In this document: positions 15,001-18,000 of the stretch, in pieces
Numbering within the stretch: position 1 is the first letter of the stretch
Layout of the letters: each line of letters begins with the position of its first letter
Assembly (NCBI GenBank): GCA_965262715.1
Contig: OZ253553.1
Span: 1,792,001 to 1,856,000, forward strand
Length of the DNA stretch: 64,000 nt
Direction: 5' to 3'
From: Bdellovibrionales bacterium
GTDB lineage: Bacteria; Bdellovibrionota; Bdellovibrionia; Bdellovibrionales; JAUICD01
Position numbers: made by a program

Positions 15001-18000
15001 CTCTAGTGAAGATTTTATAACTTTATTGATATCATCAAACTCTTTCTTATAAAAATTTTGAATCTTGTAACCAAGATGAATAGGATTGAAATTTGGATAT
15101 TTGGCATTGAGAAGACTAGATAACTCTTGATGAAAGTCGTTTGCTGTCATTTTCCTAAGGTTTCTATCGCGAATCAGAGCCCTACTCACAATTTTTTCTA
15201 TATCTGCGAGATATGGGGTTTCAGGACTTATGCTTTTTAATCTAGGAATATGAGCTTCTTTGACTTTTTTTAAAATTTTGGCTTGAGTGTTTGCATAAAA
15301 AAGACGTTGTTTGGAGAGTAGTTCCCAAAGAATAATACCTAAAGAAAAAATATCTGTTTTTTGGTTTATCTCCAACCCATCAGCTTGTTCTGGGCTCATA
15401 TAACTAAACTTGCCTTGAAGTTTCTTAGCTCGCATTTGAGCCATTTGAGTTGGGTCATTACGTTTAGATATACCAAAATCAATGAGCTTTACTTCTCCTT
15501 CGATACTCACCATGGCATTTTGGGGACTGATGTCACCATGTACTAGATAAAGCTTTTCTCCTGTTTTAGGATGAACAAACCTATGCGCATAATCTAAACT
15601 GGCAGCAAGTTCTTTAATGATATAGATTTTTTCTTCAAAAGCAAGATCTGCTTGGGCTGTATAAAGGTCCTTTAAAATCTGTCTAAGGTTTTTTCCTCTA
15701 ATGAACTCTAATTCTAAGACTAATTTTTGTTTTTTTTCTCCTTTTATCATCTCGTCAACGGTATTATAACCAATAACAGATGCGATATTTTTATGTGACA
15801 TATTCATCACTATGTCTGTCTCTTCCTCAAACATCTTGATGAACTCTAAACTTGAGGAAAAAGAGGAGATCATTGTTTTGATAGCCATTAATTTAGAGGC
15901 TTTTGGTTGACCTTTAGTTGTTTTAGGTCTCTTAACGGCTAAATGAACCTCGGCCATGCCTCCTTTACCGAGTTCATGAATTAAAATATATTCTTTACCA
16001 AGCTTTTTTTCCATATGAAAAACCCATAATTTACCATAATCTATATCGGATTATGGCATTTAGTTCTTAACTTAAGTGGGGTCTAGTTATAGCTTAAAAG
16101 GGCTATTATCATCAAAAAGGTAATGGTTATAAAATGAAACAGTATAGAAGATTTTCGATTTTAGGTACTTGACAGGTGCTTTAGAAATGATATGGTGTAT
16201 TTACTGGTTTTTATAGCGGTGGGGGTACACCTGATCCCTTTTCGAACTCAGAAGTTAAGTCCGCCAGCGGCCATGGTACTACAGTGATCTCACTGCGGGA
16301 GAGTAGCACGATGCCAGTATTTTTTCTTTTTATAGTACATATCTTGCAGAAGTAAACCTTTAAGCTGATTAATAGACAACAACAATTTCCCTAACATAAT
16401 GTAAAAAGACGAGGATATCCTTCTAGTAAAAATGCCTCAGGCTTTCTAGGCATTGCCCTATTTGCCAAACGGCGTGAGCCAGTTTGGGGGCAATGCCAGA
16501 AAGTTGCCAGAGGCAAGAGGCATTTTTAGTGAAACAGAGTAGCACGATGCCAGTATTTTTTCTTTTTATAGTACATATCTTGCAGAAGTAAACCTTTAAG
16601 CTGATTAATAGACAACAACAATTTCCCTAACATAATGTAAAAAGACGAGGATATCCTTCTAGTAAAAATGCCTCAGGCTTTCTAGGCATTGCCCTATTTG
16701 CCAAACGGCGTGAGCCAGTTTGGGGGCAATGCCAGAAAGTTGCCAGAGGCAAGAGGCATTTTTAGTGAAACAGAGTAGCACGATGCCAGTATTTTTTCTT
16801 TTTATAGTACATATCTTGCAGAAGTAAACCTTTAAGCTGATTAATAGACAACAACAATTTCCCTAACATAATGTAAAAAGACGAGGATATCCTTCTAGTA
16901 AAAATGCCTCAGGCTTTCTAGGCATTGCCCTATTTGCCAAACGGCGTGAGCCAGTTTGGGGGCAATGCCAGAAAGTTGCCAGAGGCAAGAGGCATTTTTA
17001 GTGAAACAGAGTAGCACGATGCCAGTATTTTTTCTTTTTATAGTACATATCTTGCAGAAGTAAACCTTTAAGCTGATTAATAGACAACAACAATTTCCCT
17101 AACATAATGTAAAAAGACGAGGATATCCTTCTAGTAAAAATGCCTCAGGCTTTCTAGGCATTGCCCTATTTGCCAAACGGCGTGAGCCAGTTTGGGGGCA
17201 ATGCCAGAAAGTTGCCAGAGGCAAGAGGCATTTTTAGTGAAACAGAGTAGCACGATGCCAGTATTTTTCTTTTTATTAAGATATTCAATAAATATAATGG
17301 CATTGTTGCATATTGGTGATATATAAAGTCTAGAAAATTATGGTAGGCATCTTCACTAGCAGCAGGCAACCCCCGTGCCCTGTATTGCTGTTATTTTGTG
17401 GTTTTATTATGGTATAAAAACTTTATACAAATTTTTATCTCCTGAGGCACTGGCCTGAGCTAGATCAGATGCCTACCATAATTTTCTATACATATTTTTT
17501 ATGCAACAAGTCCATAAATAATGGATAATTTTATATAAAAAATATCTGTATTTTTATGCCTATTCTTTGTTGAATATGATAGAAAAATCATATAATCATA
17601 TATTTATAATAAAAATAAGTCAGACACACTAAGTAAAAAATAAAGTTATTATTATGATTAAATCCATTAAATTTCAGAATTTTACATCACTTTATCATGA
17701 AGGTGAGGTCAATTTTGTAGTTGATGATGATGCTCCAGATATAAACGATTTTAAAAAGTGTGGTTCTCACCGGCTCTCAAAAGTATCAGTTATTTTAGGA
17801 GCCAATGGTTCAGGTAAAAGTAATGTGCTTTATGCGATTGCTTTTTTAAGAAGATTTATAGCGCATTCGTTTTCAGAAGCTTCAGAAGGGATAAATATAC
17901 CTCCACATGCAGCGCAAACAGATAAGCCCTCTTATTTCGAAGTGGAATTTTATATTGAAAAGCAGTTATATAAATTTTCTTTAAGACTTAATCAAGAAAG

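What a model noticed while it worked through the whole genome (the two positions that open the first line are those of the whole stretch)
16169..16335. 5S rRNA gene cut loose from the rrn operon as a leaderless, self-terminating unit in the genus that lost RNase E/G
The only 5S rRNA gene lies 762 kb from the single 16S-tRNAIle-23S operon, directly behind a near-consensus sigma-70 promoter whose -10 box ends 6 nt before the mature 5' end, and it is followed at once by a T-tract. Boldest reading: 5S rRNA is made as a primary transcript that starts and stops at or near its mature ends, so the endonucleolytic release normally done by RNase E/G is no longer needed, and this relocation made loss of RNase E/G tolerable (or followed from it). 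That would tie rRNA operon architecture to the RNase repertoire in a testable way.
Evidence so far: rna.tsv: 16S 1040549-1042076, tRNA-Ile, 23S 1042808-1045839 and 5S 1808203-1808319, all on the + strand. I saw nothing 5S-like in the 400 bp after 23S (read by eye, call 151). Promoter scan: TTGACA, 16 nt, TATGGT with a TG, 10 of 12 matches, ending at 1808196; a T-tract starts at 1808320. In G004, G002 and G001, which have RNase G and Y, 5S lies 149, 311 and 338 bp behind 23S. In G003, the sister species that also lacks both, 5S (1160070-1160186) is 184 kb from 23S (972841-975857), and it is preceded by TTGACA, 17 nt, TAACTT ending 7 nt before the gene (read by eye in the sequence of call 153).
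(Added by a program. Inside this text positions count along the whole contig: contig position 1,792,001 is position 1 of the stretch shown here. "Call 12" and the like, gene names such as g00115 and contig names such as C1 are that model's own, and its searches are not shown. The text may have been shortened before it was handed on; [...] marks where a part breaks off. The agent that wrote the report below was given it as the finding of a first reader that could run no searches.)

Follow-up and report, generated by a model that had tools for sequence, protein, structure and literature searches.

The report
Stand-alone 5S rRNA gene with promoter
The genome's only 5S rRNA gene sits far from the other rRNA genes behind its own promoter, a design shared by other stray 5S genes in bacteria that still have RNase E/G, so it is probably not tied to this genus's loss of that enzyme.

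Summary
Window 16203-16319 is the genome's only 5S rRNA gene, 762 kb from 16S-tRNAIle-23S. A TTGACA-16-TATGGT promoter ends 6 nt before it and a T-tract follows. The genus lacks RNase E/G, Y and J.

- A 236-bp x 4.1 tandem array starts inside the 5S 3' end, so its last 20 nt plus the T-tract recur four more times. The array is built from a genus-specific hairpin repeat with 439 copies.
- A decayed duplicate 3 kb downstream keeps only the 5S tail.
- A T-run right after 5S is ancestral: 15 of 30 operon-linked relatives have one.
- The sister genus, which keeps RNase G and Y, has broken its operon elsewhere (16S lies 7-15 kb from 23S).

Three more orphan 5S genes in the phylum sample sit in genomes that have RNase E/G. 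All 6 orphans examined carry TTGAC[AT]-16/17-TAnnnN, ending 4-7 nt before the 5S in 5 of them. None of 30 linked genes has this.

The "transcript starts at the mature 5' end" reading is therefore supported and general. The causal link to RNase loss is not supported. No RNA data exist. Earlier notes of this scan had already found the repeat family elsewhere in this genome.

The parts
14302..16014 (-). Upstream neighbour, a Ser/Thr protein kinase gene (570 aa) on the opposite strand. The 5S therefore cannot be co-transcribed with it.
   Evidence: ORF list; Pfam Pkinase E=1.2e-30.
16169..16196 (+). Sigma-70-type promoter TTGACA-16-TATGGT with a TG upstream of the -10. The -10 ends 6 nt before the 5S.
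   Evidence: 10 of 12 matches; placement statistics; the same geometry at 6 of 6 orphan 5S genes and 0 of 30 linked ones. The transcription start is predicted, not mapped.
16203..16319 (+). 5S rRNA gene, the only one in the genome.
   Evidence: RF00001 at 82.6 bits, full length; single hit in the genome; the outer helix forms in the minimum-energy fold.
16320..16331 (+). T-tract TTTTTTCTTTTT directly after 5S helix I. It is the likely site of termination or 3' trimming and is inherited from the ancestral operon end.
   Evidence: Sequence. The same tract follows the 5S-tail remnant in the paralogous copy. A T-run of >=5 is present in 15 of 30 linked relatives.
16300..17276 (+). Tandem array of 236-bp units, 4.1 copies, 99% identical. 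Each unit holds the last 20 nt of 5S, the T-tract and one full-length copy of a dispersed hairpin repeat.
   Evidence: TRF; blastn. Contig depth of the unit relative to single-copy sequence is 20/5 and 59/14.6, about 4-fold. Those runs may be the assembly's own sample.
16536..16555 (+). Copy 1 of the 5S tail (5S positions 98-117), exact.
   Evidence: blastn, 20/20.
16772..16791 (+). Copy 2 of the 5S tail, exact.
   Evidence: blastn, 20/20.
17008..17027 (+). Copy 3 of the 5S tail, exact.
   Evidence: blastn, 20/20.
17244..17263 (+). Copy 4 of the 5S tail, exact. It is followed by the original downstream flank.
   Evidence: blastn, 20/20; comparison with copy B.
16342..17263 (+). Four copies of the genus-specific structured repeat. 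Each has a long hairpin with a run of A before it and a run of T after it, so it resembles a terminator in both directions.
   Evidence: nhmmer; fold -69.1 kcal/mol, z=-4.2; covariation in 103 copies.
15022..16088 (.). Left arm of segmental duplication copy A (5' part of the kinase gene plus intergenic DNA).
   Evidence: 93.5% identical to 18219-19285.
17230..18211 (.). Right arm of copy A (last 5S tail, original 3' flank, truncated AAA_21 ATPase gene).
   Evidence: 89.7% identical to 19282-20258; Pfam.
18219..20258 (.). Segmental duplication copy B: truncated kinase gene, then a junction, then an intact AAA_21 gene. It has no promoter, no 5S body and no array.
   Evidence: sequence. DNA contigs carry the same junction.
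19297..19329 (+). 5S-tail remnant (17 of 17 identical to 5S positions 100-116) plus the T-tract in copy B. It is preceded by about 15 nt that resemble the 3' end of the repeat.

Best explanation
This is a real, functional, single-copy 5S rRNA gene that left the rrn operon in the ancestor of this genus and now works as its own small transcription unit.

A sigma-70 promoter (TTGACA-16-TG-n-TATGGT) is placed so that RNA polymerase should start at, or within a few nucleotides of, the first base of mature 5S. If so, no 5' endonuclease cut is needed. This step is inferred from geometry and comparison and has not been mapped.

The 3' end is probably made in the U-tract that directly follows helix I, followed by 3'-to-5' trimming. 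PNPase and an RNase R/II-type enzyme are present. This step is also inferred. The U-tract is inherited from the old operon end.

This promoter design is a general property of 5S genes that have left the operon. It also occurs in relatives that keep RNase E/G, so it does not depend on the genus's loss of RNase E/G and Y.

The relocation is best explained by the heavy rearrangement typical of this repeat-rich lineage. The 236-bp array behind the gene and the 5S-tail remnant 3 kb away are by-products of a genus-specific hairpin repeat and of a local segmental duplication. In that duplication, the second 5S copy was later deleted.
For: Gene and location:
- Full-length RF00001 match, the only copy in the genome.
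- No 5S after 23S.
- The upstream genes are divergent in both species, so a private promoter is required.

Promoter:
- 10 of 12 matches plus TG, ending 6 nt before the gene. The chance of such a placement is about 0.0015, or 1.4e-4 with the TG.
- Orphan 5S genes: G000 TTGACA-16-TATGGT-6 nt; G001 TTGACA-17-TAACTT-7; G043 TTGACT-17-TACCTT-5; G161 TTGACT-17-TATAAC-4; G122 TTGACT-17-TAGTAT-17; metagenome locus L086 TTGACA-16-TATTAT-7 (the scanner also calls this one at 11/12).
- Control: among 30 linked loci, 2 have any TTGAC[AT] within 70 nt upstream and none has it in promoter geometry next to the 5S.

Independence from RNase E/G:
- G043, G161 and G122 have RNase E/G at 312.8, 345.4 and 345.1 bits.
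- Their orphan status was shown by cmscan of the flanks.
- Genus g3 keeps RNase G and Y but has 16S 15.2 and 7.1 kb from 23S.

3' end:
- The T-run is ancestral, present in 15 of 30 linked loci.
- PNPase and an RNB-family exonuclease are present in both species.

Rearrangement context:
- Genes flanking the G001 5S map to scattered places in G000.
- The repeat has 439 copies in G000 and 194 hits per 400 kb in G001.
- A partial repeat lies about 100 nt after the G001 23S.
- The segmental duplication and the tail remnant are described.
Against: - No transcript end is mapped. No RNA run holding this locus is listed.
- The sister species' -10 matches only 3 of 6 positions, and the scanner does not call it. 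A 10/12 site lies about 255 nt further upstream there.
- G000 also has a weaker site (TTATCA-18-TAAAAT, 9/12) ending 67 nt upstream.
- Helix I closes a three-way junction and is a weak stem. No terminator is called there, and 5S plus tract folds no better than shuffled sequence (z=+0.83).
- G161 and G122 belong to one family and may represent a single event.
- Orphan status in G161 rests on only 1,084 nt of upstream sequence.
- I paired the 5S and 23S positions by eye.
- Orphans in genomes with RNase E/G carry classical hairpin terminators right after the 5S. The two RNase-less species do not. However, genus g3, which has RNase G and Y, also lacks a called terminator after its 5S.
Confidence: 0.6

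Rival explanations
1. The 5S was converted into a leaderless, self-terminating unit because of the loss of RNase E/G, or that conversion is what made the loss tolerable, so the two events are causally tied.
For: - Both features are confined to the same genus among 41 genomes of the order.
- The genus also lacks RNase Y, J and M5, so no known enzyme is left to release 5S from a 23S-5S precursor.
- The two RNase-less species lack the classical hairpin terminator that the three orphans in RNase E/G-positive genomes carry.
- A published, phylogenetically corrected analysis found fewer RNase_E_G genes in genomes with unlinked rRNA genes, p=0.0002 (PMC7761764, passages read).
Against: - It rests on one evolutionary event.
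- Three orphan 5S genes with the same promoter geometry lie in genomes that have RNase E/G.
- The T-tract predates the relocation.
- Genus g3 broke its operon at another joint while keeping RNase G and Y.
- Genus g3 also lacks a called terminator after its 5S.
- RNase E/G has many other substrates, so freeing 5S alone would not explain its loss. This last point rests on general knowledge, not on a call.
Confidence: 0.15
2. The 5S is made with a 5' leader from a promoter further upstream and is trimmed by an unidentified nuclease (RNase III, YbeY or something unknown). The adjacent promoter-like site would then be fortuitous or secondary.
For: - Alternative sites exist: 9/12 ending 67 nt upstream in G000 and 10/12 ending about 255 nt upstream in G001.
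- The G001 -10 is weak, 3 of 6.
- G122 would have a leader of about 10 nt.
- RNase III and YbeY are present in all five family genomes.
Against: - 5 of 6 orphans have the -10 ending 4-7 nt before the gene, against 0 of 30 linked genes. That is hard to explain by chance.
- The placement probability for G000 is about 0.0015 or lower.
Confidence: 0.15
3. The copies of the 5S tail in the array are footprints of a targeted insertion mechanism and not slippage debris. On this view the hairpin repeat integrates at the 3' ends of stable-RNA genes and duplicates the target's 3' part, as integrative elements do at tRNA genes.
For: - The same layout occurs behind tRNA-Arg(UCU). There, four repeats alternate with three partial tRNA copies (two of about 65 nt, one of about 33 nt), and the last 25 nt of the tRNA occur four times exactly. 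Repeats 3 and 4 differ clearly from 1 and 2, while the tRNA pieces stay nearly identical.
- Repeats lie within 25 nt of the 3' end of 5 of 38 tRNA genes, against 39 of 1,974 ORFs of >=150 aa (Fisher p=0.0012).
- Repeat 3' ends abut tRNA boundaries within 0-7 nt in five cases.
- The array ends with a further 33-nt tail-plus-T-tract copy before the original flank, which implies a first insertion flanked by a 33-nt direct repeat.
Against: - 155 of 241 loci are single copies, and most are not next to stable-RNA genes.
- In G001, none of the 6 tRNAs in the 400 kb sampled has a repeat within 25 nt of its 3' end, and its 5S has none within 9 kb.
- The junctions show only short microhomology, which fits template switching at a hairpin equally well.
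- No recombinase was sought.
Confidence: 0.3
4. Artefact: the 5S here is a pseudogene, or the array is an assembly error.
For: - The array units are 99-100% identical, a pattern that assemblers can get wrong.
- The f1 family's 5S genes score lower (78-91 bits) than most others in the order (91-104 bits; one other genome scores 78.9).
Against: - It is the only 5S in a complete single-contig genome.
- It is a full-length match with helix I intact.
- The sister species has the same unlinked arrangement.
- A 282-nt contig spans promoter and 5S with no differences, and unit depth is about 4 times single-copy depth in two runs. These runs may not be independent of the assembly.
Confidence: 0.03

Closest known systems
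[quoted passage not shown]
   Same: The 16S and 23S genes stay together while the 5S lies elsewhere as a separate gene.
   Different: That passage gives no promoter or end geometry. The organism is a mollicute with a different RNase set (recalled, not tested). Here there is a single copy, in a roughly 3-Mb genome described in earlier scan notes as an uncultured Bdellovibrionota bacterium.
Unlinked rRNA operons and reduced RNase_E_G gene counts (PMC7761764, Biology 2020; passages read)
   Same: It reports, with phylogenetic correction, fewer RNase_E_G (p=0.0002), RNase_T and RNase_PH genes in genomes with unlinked rRNA operons. It calls for study of rRNA processing in such bacteria. This anticipates the general idea of the finding.
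   Different: It is statistical and genome-wide, about operon disruption in general. In the passages read there is no 5S-specific mechanism and no promoter geometry.
RNase E processing of the 9S precursor to 5S in E. coli, and RNase M5 in Bacillus (recalled textbook knowledge; RNase III's role in operon processing is in the abstract of PMC6582327, seen in a search listing)
   Same: It is the pathway that the proposed primary-transcript route would bypass.
   Different: This genus has no RNase E/G, Y, J or M5, and its 5S is not part of a polycistronic precursor.
Eukaryotic 5S rRNA genes transcribed by RNA polymerase III (recalled, not tested)
   Same: They are separate from the large rRNA genes. 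The transcript starts at the mature 5' end and stops in a run of T.
   Different: They use an internal promoter, dedicated factors and a different polymerase. Here the promoter is an ordinary upstream sigma-70 type.
Small structured intergenic repeats: REP/REPIN, Rickettsia palindromic elements, Correia/ERIC (named in earlier scan notes e1-3058933, e1-3058934 and e1-4383057; properties recalled)
   Same: Hundreds of intergenic copies on both strands, with a hairpin fold kept by compensatory changes.
   Different: About 160-200 nt with a three-helix fold, strongly prone to tandem arrays with periods of 56-431 bp, and carrying along the 3' parts of stable-RNA genes. No associated transposase was identified or sought here.

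Membership tests
5S rRNA (Rfam RF00001) | Full-length match to the covariance model above the gathering score | tested here: met
   82.6 bits against 38, model positions 1-120 of 120.
5S rRNA (Rfam RF00001) | Terminal helix I pairs the 5' and 3' ends | tested here: met
   The covariance-model alignment shows 9 helix I pairs with one mismatch. The outer 5 pairs form in the minimum-energy fold.
Canonical bacterial rrn operon (16S-23S-5S) | 5S lies within a few hundred nt downstream of 23S on the same strand | tested here: not met
   The separation is 762,364 bp. Nothing 5S-like follows 23S. In 29 of 30 loci from other genera of the order the spacer is 51-341 nt; the 30th has too little flanking sequence to tell.
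Unlinked (orphan) rRNA gene | Separated from the other rRNA genes by far more than a spacer, with non-rRNA genes in between. The 1,500-bp criterion is recalled from Brewer et al. 2020, seen only as a citation. | tested here: met
   762 kb in G000 and 184 kb in G001.
Sigma-70 promoter | -35 and -10 hexamers close to consensus with a 16-18 nt spacer | tested here: met
   TTGACA-16-TATGGT, 10/12, with TG.
Sigma-70 promoter | Transcription demonstrably starts 5-9 nt after the -10 | not testable with these tools
   No RNA run is listed for this locus.
Intrinsic (Rho-independent) terminator | A G+C-rich simple hairpin directly followed by a run of T | tested here: inconclusive
   The run of T is present, but the stem is helix I of a three-way junction. 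The scanner calls no terminator after the 5S. 5S plus tract folds no better than shuffles.
REPIN/RAYT-type or MITE-type mobile repeat (for the array units) | A cognate transposase gene in the genome, and terminal inverted repeats with target-site duplications | not tested
   Only copy number, intergenic location, fold and covariation were measured.
Integrative element at a stable-RNA gene | Direct repeats formed by the 3' part of the target gene flank the inserted unit | tested here: met
   The 33-nt 5S tail plus T-tract flanks each unit. Partial tRNA-Arg copies flank units at 1103535-1104480.
Integrative element at a stable-RNA gene | An integrase or recombinase, in cis or in trans, that explains the insertion | not tested
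   No search was made.

The most novel reading that the evidence does not exclude
Bacterial 5S genes that leave the rrn operon are regularly rebuilt as processing-free units. A sigma-70 promoter is set so that transcription begins at the mature 5' end, a convergent counterpart of eukaryotic 5S genes. In this genus that design was a pre-adaptation. It helped make possible a rare state for a bacterium, having none of RNase E/G, RNase Y or RNase J. The same genus then accumulated hundreds to over a thousand hairpin repeats that copy the 3' ends of stable-RNA genes when they form arrays.
Probability: 0.25. Interest if true: 0.7.

Novelty: new variant of a known kind. Interest (0 to 1): 0.5.

Why it matters
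Unlinked rRNA genes are well documented, but how an orphan 5S is expressed and matured has hardly been examined. Three points matter here:

1. A simple rule emerges. In all six orphan 5S genes examined, a promoter abuts the gene, so the primary transcript should already carry the mature 5' end. The rule is easy to test on thousands of genomes and with any differential RNA-seq data set from an organism that has an orphan 5S.
2. The attractive causal story linking this design to RNase E/G loss does not hold up, which saves effort.
3. The genus itself is unusual. Reviews state that nearly every bacterial species has at least one of RNase E/G, J or Y (PMC3071783 and PMC3997798, passages read). How this genus starts RNA decay and matures 16S rRNA and tRNAs is an open question.

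Tried and rejected
- RNA evidence: no RNA holder is listed for window 15400-16540. The five runs listed are kept as contigs of unrecorded kind.
- Laying X1, X2 and X5 gave only DNA-type contigs. The one 'joint' (16085 to 16302) is copy B mapping onto copy A. X5 leaves 16107-16221 uncovered, which says nothing either way.
- The protein atlas on ThiI gave no usable placement; Pseudomonadota was merely the commonest taxon.
- A 23S search over 41 genomes failed with a tool error. I replaced it with a 4-genome search, a BLAST of fetched flanks and later a 500-nt 23S-end query.
- Metagenome scan 1, with a 39-mer of the 5S, found nothing. Scan 2, with a 25-mer, gave 9 loci. None belongs to this genus and none has a repeat-family hit. 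Seven have a 23S end upstream. L085 has only 348 nt upstream and no adjacent promoter, so its orphan status is unsure.
- I looked for a promoter already present in the 23S-5S spacers of G002-G004. None lies next to the 5S.
- I considered that the hairpin repeat is a conserved terminator module for stable-RNA genes. This is rejected as a conserved function, because G001 shows no such adjacency.
- Synteny cannot decide between one relocation and two, because the genomes are too scrambled.
- Of the genomes with a 5S hit but no 23S-end hit, seven proved to have the 5S at a contig end and are uninformative (G094, G151, G101, G144, G072, G160, G169). G044, G078, G111 and one copy in G133 have the 5S at a contig start and were not fetched.
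- Literature: searches found no paper describing promoter geometry at orphan bacterial 5S genes, and none on RNases in Bdellovibrionota.
- Rfam has no family matching the repeat.
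Full report
**1. What is there**

Rfam finds one family in the whole 64-kb window: 5S rRNA at 16203-16319 (+), 82.6 bits, full length. 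It is the only 5S in the 2.94-Mb single-contig genome. That genome is 33.6% G+C, with estimated completeness 92.7%.

The single 23S lies at 1042808-1045839, with 16S and tRNA-Ile before it. The 5S is therefore 762 kb away. Nothing resembling 5S follows 23S even at E<=10. A classical hairpin terminator lies about 150 nt after 23S.

The promoter-like site TTGACA-16-TATGGT, with a TG before the -10, lies at 16169-16196 and ends 6 nt before the gene. TTTTTTCTTTTT follows the gene at once. The upstream gene is a Ser/Thr kinase on the other strand, so the 5S needs a promoter of its own within 188 bp.

Sites of this quality occur at 2.9e-4 per base-strand genome-wide. The chance that one ends 5-9 nt before a given point is about 0.0015, or 1.4e-4 with the TG.

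**2.

From 16300, inside the 5S, to 17276 runs a tandem array of 236-bp units: 4.1 copies at 99% identity. Each unit holds three things:
- the last 20 nt of 5S;
- the T-tract;
- a roughly 200-nt element with a very stable long hairpin (-69.1 kcal/mol against -50.5 +/- 4.4 for shuffles).

The 5S tail therefore recurs exactly at 16536, 16772, 17008 and 17244.

The locus is also part of a segmental duplication. Windows 15022-16088 and 17230-18211 (copy A, which flanks the 5S and the array) match 18219-19285 (93.5%) and 19282-20258 (89.7%). In copy B these two stretches abut each other.

Copy B has no promoter, no 5S body and no array. It does keep a 5S-tail remnant, 17 of 17 identical to 5S positions 100-116. 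After the remnant come the same T-tract and the same downstream flank. Before it lie about 15 nt that resemble the 3' end of the repeat.

Three conclusions follow:
- The T-tract and the flank after the array are the original 3' context of the 5S.
- The genome once had two copies of this locus and deleted the 5S from one.
- The array grew later, because its units are 99-100% identical while the two duplication copies differ by 6-10%.

**3. The repeat**

The core of the unit belongs to a dispersed family.
- It has 439 nhmmer hits (E<=1e-5) at 241 loci and makes up 2.3% of the genome, on both strands.
- 155 loci are single copies. 86 hold two or more copies, up to 16, with periods of 56-431 bp.
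- Only 13 of 439 copies lie mostly inside ORFs of >=120 aa, although such ORFs cover 77% of the genome.
- In 103 copies of under 90% mutual identity (mean 69%), 95.6% of the cells in 24 predicted pairs are canonical. Many pairs show 3-6 canonical types.
- Rfam has no match.
- The sister species has 194 hits in 400 kb. Genus g3 has none in 400 kb.

Earlier notes of this scan had already found the family elsewhere in this genome (e1-3058933, e1-3058934, e1-4383057, e1-4383056). One of them describes an array behind tRNA-Arg(UCU) with partial tRNA copies. I checked it:
- The last 25 nt of the tRNA occur four times exactly.
- Two partial copies are about 65 nt long and one is about 33 nt.
- Repeats 3 and 4 differ clearly from 1 and 2.

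Two stable-RNA genes thus show the same layout. Repeats lie within 25 nt of the 3' end of 5 of 38 tRNAs, against 39 of 1,974 long ORFs (p=0.0012).

This adjacency is not conserved in G001. None of the 6 tRNAs in the 400 kb sampled has a repeat within 25 nt of its 3' end, and the 5S has none within 9 kb. I therefore read it as an insertion or duplication bias, not a conserved function. Whether it reflects template switching at the hairpin or targeted integration is open.

**4. RNases**

- G000 has no RNase E/G, Y or J. For M5 it has only a sub-threshold 27.8-bit hit in a 632-aa ORF, which I take to be the Toprim domain of an unrelated protein (an inference; the ORF was not scanned).
- tblastn with the RNase G and RNase Y of G003 finds nothing in G000 (best E 3.0 and 1.1), so no pseudogene remnants are left.
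- G001 also lacks E/G and J. For RNase Y it has only hits of at most 33 bits to the N-terminal part.
- G003 and G004 have both G and Y. In G002 the RNase Y gene is split by a TGA.
- RNase III and YbeY are present in all five family genomes.
- PNPase and an RNB-family exonuclease are present in G000 and G001.
- RNase E/G was found in 39 of 41 genomes of the order and 149 of 151 of a phylum sample. The other miss there is a 140-contig draft whose five sampled congeners have it.

The genus is therefore a real exception. It is also the only such loss available for comparison.

**5. Is the 3' T-tract special?**

No. Among 30 operon-linked 5S loci from other genera of the order, 15 have a run of >=5 T within the first 10 nt after the gene. 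A classical hairpin terminator usually follows it.

G003, which is linked and has RNase G and Y, has TTTTTT there. G001 has only a U-rich stretch. No terminator is called after the G000 5S.

If polymerase reads through the T-tract in G000, it meets four hairpin-plus-T5 modules of the array.

**6. Is the link to RNase loss supported?**

Three lines of evidence say no.

First, within the family, genus g3 keeps RNase G and Y but has 16S 15.2 kb (G003) and 7.1 kb (G004) from 23S-5S. Operon breakage therefore recurs in this family regardless of RNase content.

Second, I searched the same 151-genome phylum sample for 5S (104 genomes with a hit) and for the last 500 nt of 23S (93 with a hit), and paired the positions by eye. 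Nearly all 5S genes lie a few hundred nt behind a 23S end. After fetching flanks and scanning them with Rfam, three further orphans stood out:
- G043: the 5S is inside a 102-kb contig. 23S ends on another contig, with no 5S in the next 3.4 kb.
- G161: no 23S in the 1,084 nt upstream.
- G122: no 23S in the 3 kb upstream.

All three genomes have RNase E/G.

Third, these orphans have the same promoter design. I used a script that keeps the -35 strict but relaxes the scanner's -10 rule. The six orphans read:

| Orphan | -35 | spacer | -10 | nt from -10 to 5S |
|---|---|---|---|---|
| G000 | TTGACA | 16 | TATGGT | 6 |
| G001 | TTGACA | 17 | TAACTT | 7 |
| G043 | TTGACT | 17 | TACCTT | 5 |
| G161 | TTGACT | 17 | TATAAC | 4 |
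| G122 | TTGACT | 17 | TAGTAT | 17 |
| L086 (unrelated metagenome contig) | TTGACA | 16 | TATTAT | 7 |

L086 has a full-length 5S and a protein-type ORF upstream on the same strand, and the scanner also calls its site at 11/12. Of 30 linked loci, 2 have TTGAC[AT] anywhere within 70 nt upstream, and none has it in this geometry.

The promoter-at-the-mature-end design is therefore a property of orphan 5S genes in general.

**7.

- The co-occurrence in one genus is real.
- The three orphans in RNase E/G-positive genomes carry classical hairpin terminators 2-8 nt after the 5S or its T-run. The two RNase-less species do not. However, genus g3 also lacks a called terminator there.
- A published analysis reports fewer RNase_E_G genes in genomes with unlinked rRNA operons (PMC7761764). 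That makes the general idea plausible, and also not new.
- An already independent 5S may have removed one obstacle to losing the enzyme. The evidence neither shows nor excludes this.

**8. How the gene was cut loose**

The two species of the genus are heavily rearranged relative to each other. Genes next to the G001 5S map to places 74 kb to more than 1 Mb from the 5S in G000. A partial repeat lies about 100 nt after the G001 23S (nhmmer E=1e-6). The two species share only a short block after 23S before their sequences diverge. Repeat-associated rearrangement is thus a reasonable route, but it is inferred.

**9. Limits**

- No transcript end is mapped.
- The promoter comparison rests on six orphans from perhaps four or five independent events.
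- The 5S boundaries are those of the covariance model and may be off by 1-3 nt.
- The 5S and 23S positions were paired by eye.
- Draft genomes with the 5S at a contig end could not be judged.
- For every paper cited I read only passages, abstracts or search listings, never the whole text. No supplements were opened.
- The organism's placement (Bdellovibrionota) comes from earlier scan notes and was not tested here.

Noticed in passing
whole genome G000; in the window at about 13940-14039, 16342-17263, 24113-24352 and 52018-52179: A genus-specific structured repeat family of about 160-200 nt. It has 439 hits at 241 loci (2.3% of the genome) and is almost entirely intergenic. It forms arrays of up to 16 copies. 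Its three-helix fold is kept by compensatory changes. It is denser in sister species G001 (194 hits per 400 kb) and was not found in 400 kb of G003. It has no Rfam family. Earlier notes of this scan had already flagged it on other windows of this genome.
   Followed up: partly
G000:C1:1103535-1104480 (outside the window): tRNA-Arg(UCU) is followed by four repeat copies that alternate with three partial tRNA copies (two of about 65 nt, one of about 33 nt). This is the same layout as the 5S array. Repeats 3 and 4 differ from 1 and 2, while the tRNA pieces stay nearly identical.
   Followed up: yes
G000:C1, tRNA-Ala(tgc) 1205288-1205363, tRNA-Gly(gcc) 1992160-1992236, tRNA-Ala(ggc) 2050836-2050911, tRNA-His 2498146-2498221, tRNA-Gly(tcc) 2196863-2196939: The 3' ends of repeat copies abut tRNA gene boundaries within 0-7 nt. 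Three are tail-to-tail with the tRNA 3' end, and two lie just before a tRNA 5' end.
   Followed up: partly
G000:C1:1042560-1042711 (locus L078 4560-4711): A repeat copy sits inside the 16S-23S spacer, between tRNA-Ile and 23S. The spacer holds no tRNA-Ala. tRNA-Ala(UGC) lies 160 kb away with a repeat at its 3' end.
   Followed up: no
G003:C1 16S 1308524-1310039 and 23S 1290357-1293340; G004:C13 16S 134347-135864 and 23S 124274-127257: In the neighbouring genus 16S is 15.2 and 7.1 kb from 23S-5S. This is a different operon break in the same family, with RNase G and Y retained.
   Followed up: partly
G000 and G001, whole genomes: The genus has none of RNase E/G, RNase Y or RNase J, and G000 also lacks RNase M5. 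Pseudogene remnants of RNase G and Y were sought in G000 only, and none were found. RNase III, YbeY, PNPase and an RNB-family exonuclease remain. This is an exception to the rule stated in reviews.
   Followed up: partly
G002:C42:9277-10792: RNase Y is split into two pieces by a TGA in this family member. This could be a pseudogene in the making or a sequencing error.
   Followed up: no
window 14302-16014, 17654-18226, 18198-19211, 19701-20861: Paired paralogues of a Ser/Thr kinase and an AAA_21 ATPase. One copy of each is truncated (kinase 337 aa against 570 aa; ATPase 190 aa against 386 aa), as left by the segmental duplication.
   Followed up: partly
L086 (metagenome contig of 2,460 bp), 5S at 439-552 (-): An unrelated organism has an orphan 5S behind an 11/12 promoter (TTGACA-16-TATTAT) that ends 7 nt before the gene.
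   Followed up: yes
G000:C1:1055319-1056017: A weak hit (30.7 bits) to the RNase PH-like part of the PNPase model lies in a 248-aa frame that contains one TAG. It may be an RNase PH gene with an in-frame stop.
   Followed up: no
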